Below, piece after piece: positions 6,890 to 61,851 of a stretch of DNA of 64,000 nt. The translations under genes and the position numbers were made by a program. The stretch's first letter is position 1, and each line of letters starts with the position of its first letter. The notes beneath the pieces were generated by a model. It had not been told where the DNA came from. It saw only the letters and a list, made by a program, of their open reading frames with translations, and ran no database searches. Source of the stretch: a virus; IMG/VR virus record IMGVR_UViG_3300005613_000009, positions 32,001 through 96,000 of that record. The stretch is one strand, 5' to 3'.

Positions 6890-7974
6890 TCCTGCAACCA
6901 TTGACTCATTGTTAATTCTTGGCAACCATAGGTAAATCCTATATTTTCCATACATGTAATCATCGGTTGATTACTGATATTAGCTCCAAGGCTAACGGCT
7001 TTTATGCCTATTTCTGAATACAGTTTTTGACGATAACTTACTAATGCTGTTCCAACCATCATATTGCGGGTTTCGGGATTTACTATTAATCCCATACCTG
7101 ATCTGAGATTAAGTTTCAAACCTGTGTTTTCATGTAGGTTTTTATCGATTGCCATGATAATTGCACCTGCAAATTGACCTTTTATCTTTGCGATAATGAT
7201 TCGTCCAAGTTTCTGTTCATATACCTGCCTGAAACGATTGGCATAAAGTGCCATAGCATGTTTTGAATCAAAACCTTTTTCCGTCACAAATCGACTTGGA
7301 AACATTGATCCCTGATAAGCTTTTTCAATATCGTCTAGATCAGATTCAACAGCATCTGTAAATTGGATATGATAATATTCGTTTTCAACATCGAAAAATG
7401 ATTTAGTATACCCAATCATATTTACAAATCCTTCTGTATATTTATAACCAAACTCTTCTGCTGCACGAATTAAACCGATATTCTCTACAGGGATATTGAT
7501 TGAAATATATTTTAGATCCATTTCTTGTCTTGCAGTTTCGTTAATTTCCATAAACATTTTTTTCCCGGATTCATAATTGACGGAAATGTTTTTATCAACA
7601 CATGATAGGTTCGTAATGCTGCCAATAGGAACATTGAAATAATCCGACAGGAAATCAACTTTAGATAAAACAGATAGGAGATAATGTTTTTCTTCATATG
7701 TAGGGATAATTATATGTTTGTTTTTACATTGAATAATCTTATCAATTTCAGTTAATTCATTGTTTCTTATTTTATTCCACATATCTTCTGGAGCCTTCAT
7801 TCCCCGATACGGCAAATAAAGATTGTTATGTGTAAGATAAAGACATAATAGATAAACATTTGCGTAATAAGAAAACATTTCCATTTCTTCAATGTCCTTT
7901 ATCATCGATTTAATAGTATTAATAATAGATTTTACCAACTTATCGATTGTCTCCGTTGCCATGAATTTTGTCAC
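6886..7974 (-). CDS. GNAT-family N-acetyltransferase (WecD-like); true start probably internal (~7905 or 7884)
   Basis: C-terminal GNAT motifs (GLIVNPETRNMMVGTALV...SLGANISNQPMITCMENIGF); last gene of the sugar operon. Confidence 0.6.
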   Translation of the reverse strand: MTKFMATETIDKLVKSIINTIKSMIKDIEEMEMFSYYANVYLLCLYLTHNNLYLPYRGMKAPEDMWNKIRNNELTEIDKIIQCKNKHIIIPTYEEKHYLLSVLSKVDFLSDYFNVPIGSITNLSCVDKNISVNYESGKKMFMEINETARQEMDLKYISINIPVENIGLIRAAEEFGYKYTEGFVNMIGYTKSFFDVENEYYHIQFTDAVESDLDDIEKAYQGSMFPSRFVTEKGFDSKHAMALYANRFRQVYEQKLGRIIIAKIKGQFAGAIIMAIDKNLHENTGLKLNLRSGMGLIVNPETRNMMVGTALVSYRQKLYSEIGIKAVSLGANISNQPMITCMENIGFTYGCQELTMSQWLQD

Positions 7975-16147: not shown

Positions 16148-16543
16148 CTAATTTTTACCTTTCAAATGTTTTATATTTTTCTCTCTTAAATAATTGCGGA
16201 TTGTTGTTTCGCTGACACCCAATACCCTATGCATTTTTTTTATAGTCATTTTATTGATTTGTTCTTTTGATAAAGTACGACAAAGATCTCGTTTAGGTGT
16301 TCTTATATTATTGGCACCACCATGTTTATGTGATCTTTTTATGTTATAGCCATCCAAGCGGCGGTATATATATATCCTGGAAACACCTAGTTGGTTTGCT
16401 ATTTGACTTGCGGTAAATTTTTTTATCAAAGTAGACAACATTTCTTGTTCGCTTTGAAAATTAGTATTGTACATATTGTTATACATAACAATATATTCTT
16501 CCCAGTTAATTATAGTTGGATATTTGTTTTCCCTCGATACCAT
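16148..16543 (-). CDS. Protein with two HTH-like segments
   Basis: ASQIANQLGVSRIYIYRRL and MHRVLGVSETTIRNYLRE. Confidence 0.6.
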   Translation of the reverse strand: MVSRENKYPTIINWEEYIVMYNNMYNTNFQSEQEMLSTLIKKFTASQIANQLGVSRIYIYRRLDGYNIKRSHKHGGANNIRTPKRDLCRTLSKEQINKMTIKKMHRVLGVSETTIRNYLREKNIKHLKGKN

Positions 16544-25171: not shown

Positions 25172-25381
25172 TTATTTACCTTTCTTCTCAGATTCATTTT
25201 TAATCTGTGGATAACGATGAATCTGTGTTTTATGCAGACGTTTAATTTTGCCATTGGCAATTTGGATTTTGATGTAATTTTTGTATTTACCTTTTGGAAT
25301 GATGGTATACTTGACAAAATATATCCACCTGTCTCCATCCCAAGCAAACCCTGGTTCTATTTTTTGCTTTTTTTTTCTCAT
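25172..25381 (-). CDS. Small basic hypothetical protein
   Basis: GGGAGAGGG RBS behind a motif copy. Confidence 0.6.
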   Translation of the reverse strand: MRKKKQKIEPGFAWDGDRWIYFVKYTIIPKGKYKNYIKIQIANGKIKRLHKTQIHRYPQIKNESEKKGK

Positions 25382-25446
25382 CCCTCTCCCTTGTTAATAA
25401 ATAAACAGTTGAAGAATCACAGAAAAACAAATAAAAAAATCAAAAA

Positions 25447-27723
25447 TCAGAAAAGCGAAAGTTGAGCAACAACTGGTCTTTTTGCCTCCGTTATCATTTT
25501 GTCCAACTCGTCTTGCGTAACTTCGACATGTGTAACTTTCTTTTTTCGTTTACCTACATACTCAGTAAATCTGACCTTGACGATACAATTTCCAATCTGT
25601 TCCATGCTAGATTCCATTTTAAGGACTTTATCTTCATTTGGAATCTCACAATTTTCAATATTTAGAGTGTTTCCTGTTTGACATACCGGTTTTCCATTTA
25701 TTTCACCATTGCTCAACAATTGCTCTGACTTAACTTCGCTTTTTCGATAACTAATCCATAAATCTTTTAGTGATCCATCTTTATATTTAACGTTTTCAAT
25801 AAGCATTTTTGCAAGTTCTTTAGCGAGGTTATTCCCTCCGATATTTGCCATAGCATTTAAACCTTGATCGCTAAGATCTCCCTCAACGCTCATACTTGAC
25901 ATTAATTTATTTGCCATGAGTTGCAATAATTTTGACTGCATAGTCCCAGTATAAACAAAAAAGTATACGTGGACCGGATTTTTCTGTGGAATACGCCAAG
26001 ACCTTCTTGATGCTTGTCGTAAAGTATAAGTACTTAGTGGAATTTGGTAAAAAATAATGGTAGGGAAATCCATAAGATCCATGCCGACTTCAACCTTGCG
26101 AGGATTAGTTAAAACTACATCAACACCTTGATTCACCCACCCTTGAATGATTTCAGCTCGTTTTTCTGTGTTACCACTTTTCAAAACCTTAATTCTAACC
26201 CCTTTTTCTTCGAGGATTTCAATTAATCGATCACTAATATCGGTTTCGCCCGAACTTTCATAATAAAGAAGAACCCTGCGACCGATTTGTTTTTCATTTA
26301 AAACAATTTCTGCAAGTTGTTCTTCTTTTGGCATAATACCATCCACTGGTTTCCCGGTTGCAACCACCTCATTAGTATATGGATGAGTAACAATAATACC
26401 ATTTTGGATACGTTCTGTATATGTAAGAAGAGAATTTATATAGCTCCCTAATAAAGAATTGTCTCCTGTCGCCAAAGCATTAAGTAACGCTTTTTTAAGT
26501 TCATCCTCAAAATTTTTGTATGCTTTTGCCATCATCGGATCCATTTCTAATTCGATGATTTTTTCGTCATACGTTTGAAGACTGTTTATACAATCTGAAA
26601 GCTGCATAAATACGCAGTGCGGTAACAGCATATTGGTGATCATTACAGGATTAATACCGGGTTTTTCTTTAATATACGTTCTTTTCTTTGACTGAACAAC
26701 AAGGCCATCTTCCTGCTCTGCAAGTTTGATTTTCTCCAATGTACCGTAACGCTCAATGAATTTTCTTGGGGAACCCCATTTGTTGCCGTCCTGATTCATT
26801 ACCTTTGGATGTGTTCTGTATAGTAAATTGTAGACATCTGATGCATAACCACCAACAAGTGTTCCTGTAAGACAAAGAGTATATTTACAGGCCGATGCCA
26901 AAGCACCAAATGCGTATCCTTGCCCTGAATGATTTTTGAATTGATGAACTTCATCTGCGATTAGTAAGTCAAAAAATCCATTCATACGATTATTGATAAA
27001 TTTTGCAGGAATAACACGCCTAAAGCCTGGCTTGGAATTATCAGGTTGCCACAGTTGCTCACCACATCTGACACATCTGTATTTTCGTTTAAATCGTTTT
27101 TGTTTATTACGCTGCCATATGTCAACAGGTACATCATCTTGGTCCAAAACAATTTTGTTGCATCTCGGACAATGCCATGTTTGAAAACCATGCTTATTTA
27201 CCTTAATGACTGCAGCAGGCCGCCATGGGGCACCTATCTTAGCCCTTTCCCGACCAATGACATAAAACTCAAGGGTCGTGGGTTGCTTTGTTTTTGATAT
27301 CCGAATCAATTCTTTTGTGACATTTTTGGTGTTTAAATTGACAACTTTTACATTCGAGATAGTCTCACGGATTTCTGTAATCCACTTTTTTACAATTGTT
27401 GGCGGACATAAAACCAATACCCTTTTTACACCCATAGTACGATTCATTAACTTTGCAACACCGATAGACATTATAGTTTTACCGGTTCCACATTCTGCAA
27501 CCATATACAAACCATGATTGTTTATTGAAAATGACTTGTAACATGCTTTTATGATTTCAGCCTGTGGAGGAAAAGGTCGTTTTTTCATCTGACTGATTTG
27601 GATGTCGAGTTCCGGATCATTATCTTTCAATGGATCATGAACAACTTTAAGCGTTTTTACAACTTTGTTAGCCAAACTTTCGCCATAATCAACCAAAAAC
27701 TCTTTGAGTGCCAATTCCGGCAT
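25447..27723 (-). CDS. SF2 (SNF2/DEAD-like) helicase
   Basis: AECGTGKT, IADEVH, CLTGTL..GY, NPRKVEVGMDL, LRQASRRSWR; zinc-ribbon insertion. Confidence 0.92.
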   Translation of the reverse strand: MPELALKEFLVDYGESLANKVVKTLKVVHDPLKDNDPELDIQISQMKKRPFPPQAEIIKACYKSFSINNHGLYMVAECGTGKTIMSIGVAKLMNRTMGVKRVLVLCPPTIVKKWITEIRETISNVKVVNLNTKNVTKELIRISKTKQPTTLEFYVIGRERAKIGAPWRPAAVIKVNKHGFQTWHCPRCNKIVLDQDDVPVDIWQRNKQKRFKRKYRCVRCGEQLWQPDNSKPGFRRVIPAKFINNRMNGFFDLLIADEVHQFKNHSGQGYAFGALASACKYTLCLTGTLVGGYASDVYNLLYRTHPKVMNQDGNKWGSPRKFIERYGTLEKIKLAEQEDGLVVQSKKRTYIKEKPGINPVMITNMLLPHCVFMQLSDCINSLQTYDEKIIELEMDPMMAKAYKNFEDELKKALLNALATGDNSLLGSYINSLLTYTERIQNGIIVTHPYTNEVVATGKPVDGIMPKEEQLAEIVLNEKQIGRRVLLYYESSGETDISDRLIEILEEKGVRIKVLKSGNTEKRAEIIQGWVNQGVDVVLTNPRKVEVGMDLMDFPTIIFYQIPLSTYTLRQASRRSWRIPQKNPVHVYFFVYTGTMQSKLLQLMANKLMSSMSVEGDLSDQGLNAMANIGGNNLAKELAKMLIENVKYKDGSLKDLWISYRKSEVKSEQLLSNGEINGKPVCQTGNTLNIENCEIPNEDKVLKMESSMEQIGNCIVKVRFTEYVGKRKKKVTHVEVTQDELDKMITEAKRPVVAQLSLF

Positions 27724-51998: not shown

Positions 51999-52739
51999 TT
52001 AATAATCGAGCTTCCATCCTTTTTCCTCACAAATAGCTTTGATCAAATCACGGTCTGTCATCTGTGGATCTCCAGGTTTCCAAAGAAATGCTTTTTCAGA
52101 AAAATACCAAAATCGTTCCTCGCCTCGATATGGGCAATTATTTCCTTCAGCAGCCCATTCATCGAACCGTTCGGGATGCGGATGTGCGTAAGCGTCTCGT
52201 CGCATAAGCTCAAGAGTAAGAAAGTCCGATAACGATCCAAGATTTATAAAGGATAGCGACCTGATTGATGGAAAACCATAAAACTCGATTTTAGCTCCAG
52301 AAAGGTAGGCTGTTCTCAAATCTAAGCCCATAATGCCAATGCCTCTAAGATCAGCACCTCTAAAATTGGTATATTCAAATGTACAATTTCGTATCTTCGC
52401 ATATCTTAGATCAGAGTCTGCAAAAGAAGAACTATCAAAATTAGAGTTTTCAATAGAAGCTGCTCTAAGCCGAGTTCTATCAAAAAAAGAGTTCTCAGCA
52501 TCAACATTTGACAAATTAGAATTTTTTAAATTAGAGTCTCTGAAATCTGCATATTTAAGGTCAGAACCTCCAAAGTCTGCGCTTTCAAAGTTAGATCTGT
52601 CAAAGTTACTAACAGATAAATCAATACCTCTGAGATCAGCATCCAAGAGAGATTTTTTATTTTTTATAGCCAAGTCTCTCATTAGCTCGTCCCCCTCAAC
52701 GATTACCTCACCGTTATAGCGATTCATTATTTTTGCCAT
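51999..52739 (-). CDS. Pentapeptide-repeat protein with conserved C-terminal domain
   Basis: A(D/N)L/Fxx repeats; C-terminus shared with 56387-57400. Confidence 0.9.
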   Translation of the reverse strand: MAKIMNRYNGEVIVEGDELMRDLAIKNKKSLLDADLRGIDLSVSNFDRSNFESADFGGSDLKYADFRDSNLKNSNLSNVDAENSFFDRTRLRAASIENSNFDSSSFADSDLRYAKIRNCTFEYTNFRGADLRGIGIMGLDLRTAYLSGAKIEFYGFPSIRSLSFINLGSLSDFLTLELMRRDAYAHPHPERFDEWAAEGNNCPYRGEERFWYFSEKAFLWKPGDPQMTDRDLIKAICEEKGWKLDY

Positions 52740-56386: not shown

Positions 56387-57400
56387 TTAATTTTGGACTT
56401 TCAAATGTCCATCAATTCCCCATCCCTTTTCTTTGCAAATAGCGATAATTAAATCACGATCCGTCATAGTAGGATTTCCCGGTTCCCATAATTCTCTAGA
56501 TTCGCAAAAAGACCAAGCTCTTTCCTCATCTATGTACGGGCAATGTCCACCACCTGCCCATCCGTCAAATCTTTCAGGACAAGGATGTGAATATGCATCC
56601 CGACGCATGAGTTCGAGAGTAAGGCTATCAGATAATTCTTCCAATAGTATTGATGATAATAACCGAATTGTAGGAAATGTATGAAATTGGATTCTGGCAT
56701 TTGTAAGATTTGTTGCCAAAAAATTTGCATATTTAATCTTTGCATTTATAAGATTGGCATTTGTAAAATTGGTATGCATAAGATTTGCATATGTAAAGTC
56801 AGCTTCTTCAAGATTTGCATCTATAAAACTTACAAATGTAAGATTGGCATCTGTAAAATTTGCATCAATAAGAACAGCATTCCCAAAATTGGAACCAGTA
56901 AGATTTGTATATGTGAGATCAGCCCCTCTAAGATTGGTATTTATAAAAATGGCGTTTTCAATAACGGCACCCGTAAGATTGGCATACGCAAGATTAGCGC
57001 CTGTAAGATTGGCGGATATAAGATTTGAACTCCTGAAATCAGCATTTTTAAGGTTTGCACCTATAAAAATGGCATTTGTAAAATCTACATCCATAAGGTT
57101 TGCATGTGCAAAATCCACACTCATAAGAGTTGCATATGCGAGATTGGCCCCTTTAAGGTTTGCATTTGTGAGATTGGCACCTGTAAGGTTTGCGTTTGTG
57201 AGATTGGCATTTGTAAGGTCTGCATCTGTAAGATTGGCATCCGTAAGGTTCGCATCTGTGAAATTGGCATTTCTGAGATCGGCACATACAAGATTGGTAT
57301 CTTTGAGATCGATGTGATTTTTCTTATATAATGTCTTTAATAATTTTTTACTATCAATAACAATTTTTTGTGTAAGAGGATTCTTTTTTATTTTAGACAT
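56387..57400 (-). CDS. Pentapeptide-repeat protein with conserved C-terminal domain
   Basis: About 40 ANLTx-type repeats; C-terminus shared with 51999-52739. Confidence 0.93.
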   Translation of the reverse strand: MSKIKKNPLTQKIVIDSKKLLKTLYKKNHIDLKDTNLVCADLRNANFTDANLTDANLTDADLTNANLTNANLTGANLTNANLKGANLAYATLMSVDFAHANLMDVDFTNAIFIGANLKNADFRSSNLISANLTGANLAYANLTGAVIENAIFINTNLRGADLTYTNLTGSNFGNAVLIDANFTDANLTFVSFIDANLEEADFTYANLMHTNFTNANLINAKIKYANFLATNLTNARIQFHTFPTIRLLSSILLEELSDSLTLELMRRDAYSHPCPERFDGWAGGGHCPYIDEERAWSFCESRELWEPGNPTMTDRDLIIAICKEKGWGIDGHLKVQN

Positions 57401-59025: not shown

Positions 59026-59045
59026 TTTGATCTCCTCTTTTTAAA

Positions 59046-59152
59046 ATGCCTGCCACTACCGCCACGGTTTTCGAACTTTCCTTCGCCGGACCCTGGTACC
59101 TGGGGATTGTGGCTACCGTTCTATGAGCATTAAGGATTTATGTGACAGGCAT
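59046..59152 (-). ncRNA. Candidate structured RNA, ~107 nt
   Basis: 11-bp closing stem ATGCCTGTCAC/GTGGCAGGCAT, inner GCCAC/GTGGC stem with two small hairpins; GC-rich patch in AT-rich context. Confidence 0.4.
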
Positions 59153-59179
59153 AGTATTTTATGGTAGTAGGTGTTTATT

Positions 59180-59806
59180 TCAATTTTTAAAATCTTTACA
59201 TTTCAGCTTTGTAACAATCCGATCTCCATTCCGTGCTTTAAGTTCCACTTTGGGCTTTGCGACCAACCCCTCAGCTATAAAATCCCCCCAACATGAAAGA
59301 AAACCAGTTTTGCACATTTGGATCATTTCTGAAAGAGGCCCACAACCCATCAATGGTACAATATTAATATCAAGTACATCAGCGATTTTTTCAATATTCT
59401 GTCGCGTTAACCACCATTTGCCAATTTTTACATCAAATAGTACAAAATCCTGGTCTGGTCTGTACTTCCCTCCGCTTTGGATCTTAGCCCCATAGCCTTC
59501 GCCATAGAGACATACGCCATTGTGAAATTTTTCTCTGAGTAAATCCTGTTTGGGTAAAAATATATCATTCAATTTGTTTTCGAGTGGAGCTGGTATTTCT
59601 GCTTTGTCTGTTTTACCACCAAATGTCAAATTTTCTCCATCAAACATGACACGGATATTTGTTCCATCAACTTTTTCAGTAAATAACCAATGACAGTCTT
59701 TGAGGTATTCAAATTCAGGAAAGGCATATTGGCCCTCAAGCAATGTTTTATATTTTGTCTTGGGATCTCTCAAGAAAACGGTCTGGATTTTATGGTATTC
59801 CTCCAT
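59180..59806 (-). CDS. RNA ligase (Rnl2-like nucleotidyltransferase domain)
   Basis: Motif I TEKVDGTN, III LYGEGYG, IIIa FVLFDV, IV AEGLVAK, V TKLK. Confidence 0.85.
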   Translation of the reverse strand: MEEYHKIQTVFLRDPKTKYKTLLEGQYAFPEFEYLKDCHWLFTEKVDGTNIRVMFDGENLTFGGKTDKAEIPAPLENKLNDIFLPKQDLLREKFHNGVCLYGEGYGAKIQSGGKYRPDQDFVLFDVKIGKWWLTRQNIEKIADVLDINIVPLMGCGPLSEMIQMCKTGFLSCWGDFIAEGLVAKPKVELKARNGDRIVTKLKCKDFKN

Positions 59807-60461: not shown

Positions 60462-61295
60462 TTAAAAAACAAAAACTGTATTTTCGTTGATTTGGCTTTC
60501 ATCCGTTATCTCTACTTCTTGATTTTCTAGTGGTGTGATGGAAGCTTTTGAAAATTTTGTCAACCCGAAACTCATTTTACTGTTTTCTGAATGAAGTTGT
60601 TTACCGTCCCATTTCCACAATCCTCCATGAATATCTTTGAATTGTCCAACATTTGGTGTGAGTGTTTGCAAAATAGCCTTACGTCCAATGTTTGAAAACT
60701 CAGCATAACGCTCACGACATTTTGCGTCTTTGGCAATAACTTCCTTGAAAAGTTTCGGCATCTGTTCGGAAAGATGTTTGAGCAATTCTGGTGGAACCTT
60801 CTTCTGATAATCTCGAATTTCTCCGCCCATTAATGCTTGTGGCTGAAAATGTACAAATTCTATAACTCTATCAGCAGTAAACTCTTCTTTGCGTATAAAA
60901 CCCTTTATTGTCCATTCATAATTTTTTGCCATATCGATAAAAGAATATGGTAAAAATACAAATTCACCCACTATCCCAAGCATCTTGGGACTCTTTAAGT
61001 AAGGTACACCATTATACTTTTCCTCTTTATCTCGGCACCATTCATTGTATTTACGAGCGCGGCGTGTGAAACCTTGTTCTATTTTTAATTTTCCGTAAGG
61101 ACAAGGGGTTCCAAACAAACTATAGCGACATACACACTCTCCCCTACTATGGTATTGACAGTTTTCAGAATTATTACATGTTATAATTTGAATTTCTGAC
61201 CGAGCATTAGCTTGAAAGAATGCCAATCGTACATTTTTGAATATAGCATTTTCAGGACGAAACAAGTGAAAATGAACAACTTTATCTTCTCCCAT
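60462..61295 (-). CDS. Hypothetical phage protein with a Cys cluster
   Basis: C..SE.C.....G.C.C....G..CPYG motif; AAGGTAGG RBS. Confidence 0.75.
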   Translation of the reverse strand: MGEDKVVHFHLFRPENAIFKNVRLAFFQANARSEIQIITCNNSENCQYHSRGECVCRYSLFGTPCPYGKLKIEQGFTRRARKYNEWCRDKEEKYNGVPYLKSPKMLGIVGEFVFLPYSFIDMAKNYEWTIKGFIRKEEFTADRVIEFVHFQPQALMGGEIRDYQKKVPPELLKHLSEQMPKLFKEVIAKDAKCRERYAEFSNIGRKAILQTLTPNVGQFKDIHGGLWKWDGKQLHSENSKMSFGLTKFSKASITPLENQEVEITDESQINENTVFVF

Positions 61296-61338
61296 AATTT
61301 ACCTACCTTCCACATTTTCCGTTTTAACAATTTTTTTT

Positions 61339-61516
61339 CGTGGCAAACCGGGACTCGAACCCGGACGGGGGTCTTACAAATCCATCGAAACTTTCCCCCA
61401 ACCCAAATGAAGCCGGATTTAGCCTCTGTACGTTTTCTATGAATTTTGTTCGGCCGTGTCTACCAATAACAAGTGCTCACACCGAGCTACCTCTTGCCAA
61501 TTCCACCACTTGCCAC
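61339..61516 (-). ncRNA. 178-nt expanded tRNA-like RNA
   Basis: Acceptor GTGGCAAG/TTTGCCAC, T-arm CCGGG-TTCGAGT-CCCGG, type-II D-arm GTG-GAATTGG...TAGA-CAC, with three large insertions. Confidence 0.7.
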
Positions 61517-61536
61517 GAAATTTCATTCTAAATAAG

Positions 61537-61608
61537 AGCCGGAGCATGGATTCGAACCATGGCCTTGAAATTACAAGTTTCATGCTCTTCCAATTGAGCT
61601 ACTCCGGC
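61537..61608 (-). tRNA. tRNA-Thr(UGU), CCA not encoded
   Basis: GCCGGAG acceptor, GCTC/GAGC D-stem, TGAAA-CT TGT AA-TTTCA anticodon arm, CATGG-TTCGAAT-CCATG T-arm. Confidence 0.93.
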
Positions 61609-61851
61609 TACTCTCGTTTTAAAATTCTCTCCTTTCCTGAAATAAATTATATTTCAGATCTTGGTTCGTGTAATACCACTATCCTAGTTGTCATTCATAT
61701 CCGGAAGATGCAATTCGCCGTTTTTCAATTATTCAAGCTGTTAACAAGTCCGTGTTTGAATGACTGTGTTTCCCGATATGTTTCATTGCGAACCCAATAG
61801 TAAATACCGTTGTGGCCGTCGTTGAAACAAACGGAAACTATTGAACATAAC

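What the first reader, a model, noticed from the sequence alone, without database searches (positions are those of the whole stretch)
61339..61516. 178-nt tRNA-like RNA with three large structured insertions
Seen (minus strand): an 8-bp acceptor-type stem GTGGCAAG/TTTGCCAC plus G, a perfect T-arm, and a Leu/Ser-type D-arm. A 34-nt insertion sits in the D-loop, flanked by ATTGG direct repeats, and folds as its own hairpin (CAAG...GCTC/GAGC...CTTG); removing it restores canonical GTGGAATTGGTAGACAC. The anticodon stem GCCGAA/TCCGGC (one mismatch) encloses 31 nt instead of 7, and the 47-nt variable region has a GGGGG/CCCCC stem. It lies 20 nt downstream of a normal tRNA-Thr. Inference: insertions that preserve pairing suggest a functional RNA, either an intron-containing tRNA needing splicing or a tRNA mimic/decoy (for example against anticodon nucleases). 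No anticodon can be assigned with confidence.
Basis: partly seen in the sequence, partly recalled or inferred. Interest (0 to 1): 0.78.

Follow-up and report, generated by a model that had tools for sequence, protein, structure and literature searches.

The report
Expanded non-decoding tRNA look-alike in phage
A 120-kb uncultured phage carries, right after a normal threonine tRNA gene, a 178-base gene built on a complete leucine-tRNA frame but swollen by three inserts and without a usable anticodon loop; it fits the little-known phage 'tRNA-like stable RNAs' (first seen in phage T5) whose job is still unknown.

Summary
The window is part of a 119,981-bp tailed-phage record. ARAGORN and Rfam call only tRNA-Thr. 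If the three inserts are deleted in silico, ARAGORN calls tRNA-Leu(TAA).

The frame is a leucine-tRNA frame. The acceptor, D and T stems and the elbow nucleotides are all intact. Leader and trailer lengthen the acceptor helix to 12 bp. The leucine identity base A73 is absent, and the remnant TAA follows C, not U33.

No close homologue was found. A second assembly carries the identical sequence. A model built from this sequence finds similar long Leu-type tRNA-shaped elements in other phages with the same RNA-ligase family. It also finds phage T5 RNA1, annotated 'tRNA-like stable RNA with unknown functions' and kept in 487 T5-like records.

There is no bulge-helix-bulge signal, no ribozyme match and no tRNA-shaped insert, so splicing is poorly supported. 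The best reading (confidence 0.5) is a selected, non-decoding tRNA mimic in a tRNA and RNA-repair region (Rnl ligase, RlaP). A decaying tRNA-Leu gene is not excluded. Expression could not be tested.

Earlier notes of this scan report the same class on other phage DNA.

The parts
61339..61516 (-). the 178-nt tRNA-Leu-derived, tRNA-shaped RNA gene (candidate positions 1-178; window coordinate = 61517 minus position)
   Evidence: Sequence read; pairs listed; ARAGORN calls tRNA-Leu(taa) after in-silico removal of the inserts; identical copy in L020.
61509..61520 (-). 5' strand of the closing helix: 4 leader bases (TTTC) plus the 8-nt acceptor strand
   Evidence: 5 consecutive pairs beyond the 7-bp core that abuts U8; 12 bp in all, with one G.U.
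61336..61347 (-). 3' strand of the closing helix: 8-nt acceptor strand plus trailer bases GAAA; position 73 is C, not A
61456..61506 (-). D arm (stem GTG/CAC; loop with A14, A15, GG, TAGA), including the insert
   Evidence: same D-arm type as tRNA-Leu genes in L009, L018, L080 and L151.
61463..61496 (-). 34-nt D-loop insert between ATTGG direct repeats; folds as a two-step hairpin (-8.8 kcal/mol)
   Evidence: L098 has a hairpin insert at the same D-loop place.
61412..61454 (-). anticodon-arm analogue: 4 G-C pairs plus an A.C mismatch, enclosing an unstructured A-rich loop; relic TAA at 61421..61419, preceded by C
   Evidence: loop folds to 0.0 kcal/mol.
61365..61411 (-). 47-nt variable region with a GGGGG/CCCCC stem
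61348..61364 (-). T arm, 5 bp plus TTCGAGT loop
61536..61608 (-). normal tRNA-Thr(tgt), 19 nt upstream, probably in the same transcript
   Evidence: 72 bits.
61646..61674 (-). sigma-70-like promoter match (10 of 12) about 38 nt upstream of tRNA-Thr
   Evidence: consensus match only.
60462..61295 (-). 277-aa Cys-rich protein of unknown fold, starting 44 nt after the RNA
   Evidence: its homologues sit next to RtcB in relatives.
59180..59806 (-). ATP-dependent RNA ligase (PF09414), 1.5 kb downstream on the same strand

Best explanation
The locus is a gene for a non-decoding tRNA look-alike that evolved from a phage tRNA-Leu(UAA) gene.

Shown: the parts of a tRNA that processing and binding proteins read are all kept. 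These are the acceptor helix, the T arm, the D arm and the elbow nucleotides. The parts needed to read codons and to be charged with leucine are lost or buried. Those are a 7-nt anticodon loop with U33, the 31-39 pair and A73. All extra sequence sits in the three loops that point away from the L-shaped core.

Inferred: the RNA is transcribed together with tRNA-Thr, freed or at least folded as a tRNA-shaped module, and kept as a stable small RNA like T5 RNA1. It would act by being bound in place of a real tRNA. The most likely setting is the conflict over tRNAs between host nucleases and the phage's own tRNA and RNA-repair genes (Rnl ligase, RlaP). The exact partner is unknown.
For: 1. The frame is intact. 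All 33 listed pairs form with a single G.U. The T loop is TTCGAGT, and U8, A14, A15, GG and the G53-C61 pair are present. ARAGORN accepts the insert-free version as tRNA-Leu(taa).
2. It is not a working tRNA-Leu. ARAGORN and Rfam make no call, even at E up to 10. The loop is 31 nt and unstructured. TAA is preceded by C, and position 73 is C and is paired. All five ordinary tRNA-Leu genes in the related loci have A73.
3. It shares a derived trait with other long elements. Leader and trailer extend the acceptor helix by at least 2 pairs in 6 of 6 long tRNA-shaped elements, against 3 of 76 ordinary tRNAs of the same loci (Fisher p = 2.4e-7).
4. The architecture recurs. Model R1 finds full-length matches in L002 (23.9 bits), L098, L107 and L106. 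ARAGORN misses all of these in its first scan; in a later run it calls the 96-nt L112 copy of the L107 element a tRNA-Arg. L098 has a hairpin insert at the same D-loop position. L002 and L098 share a 4-bp hairpin with an AGATA loop, and three of its four pairs differ between the two, each keeping the pairing.
5. The best match in a cultured phage is T5 RNA1. The GenBank record annotates it as 'tRNA-like stable RNA with unknown functions'. It scores 25.5 bits, above T5's own tRNA-Leu at 16.3 bits. It is conserved in 487 T5-like records.
6. The setting fits. A tRNA-Thr gene lies 19 nt upstream, an Rnl ligase 1.5 kb downstream and an RlaP nucleotidyltransferase elsewhere in the genome. Relatives carry RtcB in the same slot.
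Against: - No orthologue was found in about 1.9 Mb of related loci, so there is no covariation evidence for the three inserts themselves.
- Phages with the closest neighbour genes lack the element at this spot.
- The cloverleaf is not the minimum-energy fold, and the fold is not more stable than shuffles.
- The resemblance to L002, L098 and T5 RNA1 rests mostly on generic tRNA-Leu features and short motifs. R1 E-values are rough.
- The four extra leader-trailer pairs in the window are one C-G and three A-U pairs.
- Pair counts on alignment A6 would look much the same for any set of tRNAs.
- All comparison loci were picked through the ligase, so linkage to the ligase is not demonstrated.
Confidence: 0.5

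Rival explanations
1. It is a decaying tRNA-Leu(UAA) pseudogene or recombination scar in a fast-turnover phage tRNA cluster. It is transcribed or not, but has no function of its own.
For: - It is unique: no orthologue was found in any collection searched.
- Relatives carry other content in the same slot: tRNA-His, tRNA-Thr, an HNH endonuclease, tRNA-Gln and RtcB.
- It has C in place of U33, an A.C at 31-39 and no A73.
- Direct repeats flank the D-loop insert, as slippage or illegitimate recombination would leave.
- The fold energy is not better than shuffles.
- Duplicated tRNA-Leu 5' fragments exist in other phage contigs (L018 and L019).
Against: - Three inserts of about 25-35 nt all landed in loops.
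- No stem pair other than the 31-39 A.C, and no elbow nucleotide, is damaged.
- The leader-trailer helix extension is shared with five other long elements and is rare in ordinary tRNAs.
- Similar architectures are kept in other phages, including a stable RNA conserved across T5-like phages.
- By general knowledge, phage genomes delete useless DNA quickly.
Confidence: 0.27
2. It is a real tRNA-Leu(UAA) gene interrupted by three introns. These would be cut out and the exons rejoined, with the nearby RNA ligase as sealing enzyme, to give a decoding tRNA.
For: - Removing the three inserts gives a sequence ARAGORN accepts as tRNA-Leu(taa).
- An RNA ligase lies 1.5 kb downstream.
- Phage tRNA introns of unknown mechanism have been reported in Lak megaphages (PMC6784885).
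- Some related loci hold tRNA-shaped modules nested inside tRNA-like genes (L106, L107). The ordinary tRNA-trimming enzymes RNase P and RNase Z could release these with ligatable ends.
Against: - Bulge-helix-bulge motifs are at chance level: 8 found against 7.9 +/- 3.3 in shuffles. The only one spanning an insert is made of four G.U pairs.
- No ribozyme or group I match, and the inserts are far too short for one.
- None of the three inserts is tRNA-shaped, so excision by RNase P and RNase Z does not apply.
- The spliced product would still have C33, an A.C at 31-39, a paired non-A position 73 and a 12-bp closing helix.
- Three precise excisions would be needed in one 178-nt RNA.
Confidence: 0.08
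3. It is a cis-acting processing or stability module. A tRNA-shaped fold between tRNA-Thr and the next gene would direct RNase P/RNase Z cleavage or protect the 5' end of the downstream mRNA.
For: - There is no terminator between the RNA and the 277-aa gene, which starts 44 nt after it with its own ribosome-binding site.
- The other long elements also end 19-50 nt before a gene start: L098 before the ligase, and L002 and L106 before small ORFs.
- A long closing helix is typical of modules embedded in longer transcripts.
Against: - An ordinary tRNA (the tRNA-Thr is already there) would do the same job without three inserts.
- T5 RNA1 is annotated as a free stable RNA.
- No data on transcript ends are available.
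Confidence: 0.1
4. It is a Y-RNA-like partner of a Ro60/Rsr protein. The long terminal helix would bind Ro and the tRNA-like module would recruit another enzyme.
For: - Y RNAs pair their ends in a long stem, and bacterial ones carry a tRNA-like module, often next to RNA-repair ligases (PMC4201824).
- The Rfam YrlA model gives a full-length sub-threshold match next to the same ligase family in L107 (34 bits, E 1e-5 on the locus).
- GCCGAA follows the D arm in the window.
Against: - The YrlA model does not hit the candidate even at E up to 10.
- No TROVE gene was found in this record or in five related records, while the controls ring.
- The GNCGAAN0-1G motif is incomplete.
- The module order is that of a normal tRNA, not of YrlA.
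Confidence: 0.05

Closest known systems
Phage T5 RNA1 (AY543070 30501-30644, 144 nt) and RNA2, annotated 'tRNA-like stable RNA with unknown functions'
   Same: Both lie inside a phage tRNA gene cluster. Both have a Leu-type D arm (TG, 3-bp stem, GAATTGGTAGA loop), a T arm, paired ends, and other sequence where the anticodon and variable arms should be. GCCGAA follows the D arm in both. Model R1 scores RNA1 at 25.5 bits, above T5's own tRNA-Leu.
   Different: There is no detectable sequence homology outside the tRNA frame. T5 RNA1 has no D-loop insert and has two U.U mismatches in its terminal helix. T5 RNA1 is annotated as a stable RNA and is conserved in 487 records. The window's RNA has neither expression data nor orthologues.
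Bacterial and phage class II tRNA-Leu(UAA)
   Same: Acceptor, D arm, T arm, a long variable region and a TAA triplet at the anticodon place. Ordinary copies occur in related phages (L018, L151, L171).
   Different: 178 nt instead of about 85. Inserts of 34 nt (D loop), about 24 nt (anticodon loop) and about 30 nt (variable region). C instead of U33. No A73. The closing helix is extended to 12 bp.
YrlA / Y RNAs (Rfam RF02553; Chen et al. 2014, PMC4201824)
   Same: A non-decoding RNA with a tRNA-like D/T/acceptor module and a long helix formed by its ends, found near RNA-repair ligases, also in phages.
   Different: YrlA has the permuted order T arm, stem-loop, D arm. It needs a Ro60 gene nearby and a GNCGAAN0-1G motif. 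None of these is met here.
'Enigmatic' tRNA introns of Lak megaphages (Devoto et al. 2019, PMC6784885)
   Same: Phage tRNA genes interrupted by conserved extra sequence of unknown excision mechanism.
   Different: Lak cases have a single insert in an otherwise normal tRNA, and one insert is itself tRNA-shaped. Here there are three non-tRNA-shaped inserts and damaged decoding and identity features.
Bacterial tRNA-Sec (8/5 geometry)
   Same: If the 5' end is at G1, the acceptor plus T helix is 8+5 = 13 bp with a long extra arm.
   Different: No 6-bp D stem, no UCA anticodon loop and no ARAGORN call. The 8th pair is better read as part of a leader-trailer helix.

Membership tests
Canonical decoding tRNA (Rfam RF00005, ARAGORN) | Recognised by tRNA gene finders and the covariance model | tested here: not met
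   ARAGORN and Rfam call only tRNA-Thr. There is no tRNA hit on the candidate even at E up to 10. With lowered thresholds ARAGORN gives only a 'possible pseudogene' Tyr parse with a 99-nt intron.
Canonical decoding tRNA (Rfam RF00005, ARAGORN) | 7-nt anticodon loop with U33 and a purine at position 37 | tested here: not met
   The loop is 31 nt (35 nt if the mismatch is counted). The relic TAA is preceded by C.
Canonical decoding tRNA (Rfam RF00005, ARAGORN) | Acceptor, D and T stems plus the conserved elbow nucleotides | tested here: met
tRNA-Leu (leucine acceptor) | Unpaired A73 discriminator (identity element for bacterial LeuRS; established knowledge) | tested here: not met
   Position 73 is C and pairs with G-1. 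Five ordinary tRNA-Leu genes in related loci all have A73.
Intron-containing tRNA, archaeal/eukaryal type | Bulge-helix-bulge motif at the insert borders | tested here: not met
   8 loose motifs against 7.9 +/- 3.3 in shuffles. None gives credible borders.
Intron-containing tRNA, archaeal/eukaryal type | Removal of the inserts gives a canonical tRNA | tested here: inconclusive
   ARAGORN accepts the product as tRNA-Leu(taa), but C33, the A.C at 31-39 and the non-A position 73 remain.
Intron-containing tRNA, archaeal/eukaryal type | Splicing endonuclease encoded or available in the host | not tested
   The host is unknown, and no EndA search was run.
tRNA-Leu(UAA) with group I intron | Self-splicing intron of about 200 nt or more in the anticodon, matching the group I model | tested here: not met
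   No Rfam intron hit. The inserts are 24-34 nt.
tmRNA | Detected by ARAGORN's tmRNA search; G3.U70 pair; tag reading frame | tested here: not met
   No tmRNA call. Pair 3-70 is G-C.
YrlA / Y RNA (RF02553) | Match to the YrlA covariance model | tested here: not met
   No hit at E up to 10 on 61200-61700. The same model does hit L107:6892-7002 at 34 bits.
YrlA / Y RNA (RF02553) | Ro60/TROVE gene within a few kb | tested here: not met
   PF05731 is absent from the 120-kb record (81% complete), while the control genomes ring.
Phage tRNA-like stable RNAs (T5 RNA1/RNA2 type) | Lies in a phage tRNA cluster, with a tRNA frame but no anticodon arm | tested here: met
Phage tRNA-like stable RNAs (T5 RNA1/RNA2 type) | Sequence or structure homology to T5 RNA1 | tested here: inconclusive
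   R1 scores RNA1 at 25.5 bits (E 9e-6 on 6 kb), mostly through the Leu-type frame. blastn of the window region against phages finds nothing.
Phage tRNA-like stable RNAs (T5 RNA1/RNA2 type) | Accumulates as a stable RNA in infection | not testable with these tools
   No sequencing run was listed for this DNA.

The most novel reading that the evidence does not exclude
The expanded tRNA look-alike is an active part of the phage's answer to host tRNA-cutting defences. It could be a decoy that soaks up anticodon or variable-loop nucleases. Or, like a Y RNA, it could be a scaffold that brings the phage Rnl ligase and RlaP to damaged tRNAs. In that case the three loop inserts would be the specificity-bearing parts.
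Probability: 0.15. Interest if true: 0.85.

Novelty: new variant of a known kind. Interest (0 to 1): 0.52.

Why it matters
Phages are now known to carry tRNAs and RNA-repair enzymes to survive host nucleases that cut tRNAs. A widespread class of phage RNAs that keeps the tRNA shape but cannot decode has been known from T5 since its genome was annotated, and still has no function. It is absent from Rfam and invisible to tRNA finders.

This locus adds a clear, strongly expanded example next to a ligase and a normal tRNA. The comparison loci show that such elements recur, with a shared extended closing helix. If they prove to be decoys or repair scaffolds, they would be a new RNA-based layer of counter-defence. 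If they are only processing signals or relics, annotators still need to know that they are not tRNAs.

Tried and rejected
- blastn of the region against 50,697 phage records: no match.
- Exact and gapped DNA patterns in viral contigs. The T arm plus acceptor pattern gave 0 hits. The D arm with a 20-50 nt gap gave 2 hits, both duplicated tRNA-Leu 5' fragments and not this element.
- Neighbour-gene routes. The 277-aa protein has no relative in viral contigs. It has 82 homologues in the protein collection. Contigs were fetched for seven of these; apart from the identical L020, none has the element upstream.
- ThyA-like and ligase loci.
- 80 viral and 80 metagenome ligase loci: no orthologue by CM, blastn or nhmmer.
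- The genome search with the RNA model missed even L002, so that blank is uninformative.
- Sequencing runs: none was listed and no RNA holder was listed, so expression and splicing could not be examined and read laying was not used.
- Repeats of the inserts elsewhere in the genome: none.
- Similarity of the inserts to 103 tRNAs from all loci: none beyond the Leu D arm.
- tmRNA, tRNA-Sec, group I intron and bulge-helix-bulge intron readings were rejected (see membership tests).
- Structure of the 277-aa neighbour: a confident model (pLDDT 89) but no informative match in PDB by Foldseek or VIA-align, so it gives no clue to an RNA-cutting partner.
- MAFFT alignment of the long elements misaligned the 5' ends. 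Alignments fitted to the covariance model were used instead.
- A short reading frame ending at the relic TAA was considered as a tmRNA-like tag and dropped, because it is not conserved among the elements.

Full report
**What the window is.** The window is bases 32001-96000 of a 119,981-bp IMG/VR virus record, estimated 81% complete. It encodes a terminase large subunit, a portal and a helicase, so it is a tailed bacteriophage. G+C is about 35%. The whole record has four ordinary tRNA genes: Thr, Gln, Asn and Pro.

**The observation.**
- An 8-pair acceptor helix with one G.U.
- U8 and G9, followed by a 3-bp D stem with a leucine-type D loop.
- A 34-nt hairpin-forming insert between two ATTGG copies in the D loop.
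- A G+C-rich 4-bp anticodon stem, then an A.C mismatch, around a 31-nt loop.
- A 47-nt variable region with a 5-bp G-C stem.
- A perfect 5-bp T stem with a TTCGAGT loop that abuts the 3' acceptor strand.
- tRNA-Thr(tgt) ending 19 nt upstream.

ARAGORN and Rfam do not call the element, even with an E-value limit of 10. With lowered thresholds ARAGORN offers only a 'possible pseudogene' parse. An independent ENA assembly carries the identical sequence, so it is not an assembly error.

**It derives from a tRNA-Leu(UAA) gene.**
- I deleted the D-loop insert and tried all ways of trimming the other two regions. ARAGORN at default settings called a tRNA in 2832 of 2976 variants. It called tRNA-Leu(taa) whenever the 3' side of the big loop was kept.
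- The relic TAA is at window 61421..61419.
- A covariance model made from this one sequence (R1) scores ordinary tRNA-Leu genes of other phages at 24-35 bits.

**It is not a working tRNA-Leu.**
- The loop is 31 nt and unstructured.
- TAA follows C rather than the near-universal U33.
- The 31-39 pair is A.C.
- Position 73 is C and pairs with the base before position 1. The five ordinary tRNA-Leu genes in the related loci all have A73, which by established knowledge is the leucine identity base in bacteria.
- The helix continues into leader and trailer, giving 12 bp.

**Search for relatives.** No orthologue was found.
- blastn against phage records found nothing.
- DNA patterns in viral contigs found nothing relevant.
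- The 277-aa downstream gene has 82 homologues. Contigs were fetched for seven of them; apart from the identical L020, none carries the element upstream. In one group the slot holds tRNA-His, tRNA-Thr, an HNH endonuclease, tRNA-Gln and RtcB.
- No public sequencing run could be listed, so expression and splicing are untested.

**Analogous elements in other phages.** R1 found a 157-nt element in L002, a 55% G+C phage whose RNA ligase is 59% identical to the window's.
- It has the same frame with every acceptor pair changed on both sides. It has a plain Leu-type D arm, about 95 nt in the middle and a T arm abutting the acceptor.

I then fetched 80 viral and 80 metagenome loci around homologues of the ligase. 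I scanned them with my own scripts for T arms that ARAGORN does not cover. Further long elements turned up.
- L098:1297-1473 (177 nt) ends 30 nt before the ligase start and has a hairpin insert at the same D-loop place.
- L106, about 2272-2425, holds a nested 71-nt tRNA-like module.
- L151, about 137-310, lies between a normal tRNA-Leu(TAA) and tRNA-Gln.
- L107 (the same phage as L112) has an array just upstream of the ligase.
- L002 and L098 share a 4-bp hairpin with an AGATA loop right after the D arm. Three of its four pairs differ between the two, each keeping the pairing.

On the model-fitted alignment of four elements, 98.9% of cells pair, and all eight acceptor pairs change on both sides. 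I give this little weight, because any set of tRNAs would behave so.

A more specific shared trait is the extended closing helix. At least two extra leader-trailer pairs occur in 6 of 6 long elements, against 3 of 76 ordinary tRNAs from the same loci (Fisher p = 2.4e-7).

**Known relatives.** The scan's earlier notes pointed to phage T5 and to Lak megaphages, and I checked both.
- The T5 record annotates RNA1 (144 nt) and RNA2 (125 nt) as 'tRNA-like stable RNA with unknown functions', inside the tRNA cluster.
- RNA1 has the same Leu-type D arm, a T arm, paired ends and GCCGAA after the D arm. It is the best R1 match in that T5 region at 25.5 bits, above T5's own tRNA-Leu at 16.3 bits. It is conserved in 487 T5-like records.
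- Lak phage tRNAs carry 'enigmatic' introns, one of which is itself tRNA-shaped (PMC6784885).
- Independently of those notes, the Rfam YrlA model gave a full-length, sub-threshold match in L107 next to the ligase (34 bits against a gathering score of 69). It does not match the candidate. No Ro60/TROVE gene is present in this record or in five related records.

**Splicing.**
- A scan for bulge-helix-bulge motifs found 8, against 7.9 +/- 3.3 in shuffled sequence. The only one spanning an insert is made of four G.U pairs.
- There is no ribozyme or group I match.
- None of the three inserts is tRNA-shaped, so excision by RNase P and RNase Z does not apply.
- The spliced product would keep the defects listed above.

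I therefore rate the intron reading low.

**Relic or function.** In favour of a relic:
- The element is unique.
- Phage tRNA clusters turn over quickly.
- The decoding and identity features are damaged.

In favour of function:
- All three inserts sit in loops that face away from the L-shaped core.
- No stem pair other than the 31-39 A.C, and no elbow nucleotide, is damaged.
- The closing helix is extended, as in the other long elements.
- The same building plan is kept in other phages, including an RNA annotated as stable.

I settle on a selected, non-decoding tRNA mimic at 0.5 and a relic at 0.27. The remainder is split between a cis-acting processing module, an intron-containing tRNA and a Y-RNA-like role.

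**Setting.**
- A promoter-like site lies about 38 nt upstream of tRNA-Thr, and there is no terminator between the RNA and the next gene.
- A PF09414 RNA ligase lies 1.5 kb downstream.
- An RlaP nucleotidyltransferase (PF10127) lies at about 104.5 kb of the record, near tRNA-Pro. RlaP adds one or two nucleotides to damaged RNA 3' ends before ligation (PMC12776372; PMC7824862).

The phage thus has an RNA-repair kit. Because all comparison loci were picked through the ligase, I cannot claim that the RNA and the ligase are functionally linked.

**Verdict.** The element is a new, strongly expanded variant of a known but unexplained kind of phage RNA. Earlier notes of this scan describe the same class on other phage DNA.

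Noticed in passing
L107:6892-7002 (same as L112), just upstream of the RNA ligase at 7147: Full-length but sub-threshold match to Rfam YrlA (34 bits, gathering score 69). A T arm, a 7-bp stem closed by a 12-nt loop, then a D arm, with outer stems. No TROVE gene is present on the 11-kb fragment.
   Followed up: partly
L107:6649-6790: A 97-nt tRNA-like gene (RF00005, 41 bits; about 30-nt anticodon loop) is flanked without spacers by a T arm plus 3' acceptor strand upstream and a matching 5' acceptor strand plus Leu-type D arm downstream. The two flanks form a 20-bp duplex with one G.U. It looks like a tRNA nested in the closed acceptor stem of a permuted tRNA-like RNA.
   Followed up: partly
L106:2272-2425: A Leu-type tRNA frame (8-bp acceptor, 7-bp T stem) encloses a 71-nt mini tRNA-like module (RF00005, 35 bits at 2322-2392) that lacks a real anticodon arm.
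   Followed up: partly
window 60462-61295 (-): A 277-aa protein with four invariant cysteines. It has 82 homologues, no Pfam or PHROG family, and a confident AF2 model (pLDDT 89) without any PDB fold match. In relatives it sits directly after RtcB; here it follows the tRNA-like RNA.
   Followed up: partly
window 59030-59175 (-): The intergenic stretch right after the RNA ligase is closed by an 11-bp long-range stem. It contains GGCGAAGG (the form of the Y-RNA Ro-binding motif) and a GTTCGAA T-loop-like run. There is no Rfam match at E up to 10, no homologue in the fetched loci, and the fold z-score is -0.8.
   Followed up: partly
L198:8482-9519 (G000 104482-105519, outside the window): An RlaP-family nucleotidyltransferase (PF10127, RNA ligase-associated) near tRNA-Pro. 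Together with the Rnl ligase it forms an RNA-repair kit. No polynucleotide kinase was seen among the ORFs scanned.
   Followed up: partly
L060:about 16290-16440 and L127:about 455-565: tRNA-Leu genes that ARAGORN misses because of oversized variable regions: about 90 nt in L060, which has a canonical TTTAAGC anticodon loop, and 31 nt in L127. They form a continuum between normal and expanded Leu-type genes.
   Followed up: no
L021:1-100: Directly upstream of the closest homologue (61%) of the 277-aa gene lies a G+C-rich, strongly paired sequence with an 8-bp CCCTCCCT/AGGGAGGG stem. It is cut by the contig end and has no Rfam match.
   Followed up: no
G000 25221-25804 (outside the window): With its intron option on, ARAGORN predicts a tRNA-Ser(tga) with a 484-nt insert in the anticodon loop.
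   Followed up: no
window 56387-57400 and 51999-52739 (-): Two pentapeptide-repeat proteins (PF00805, E 3e-55 and 1e-18) in the same gene block.
   Followed up: no
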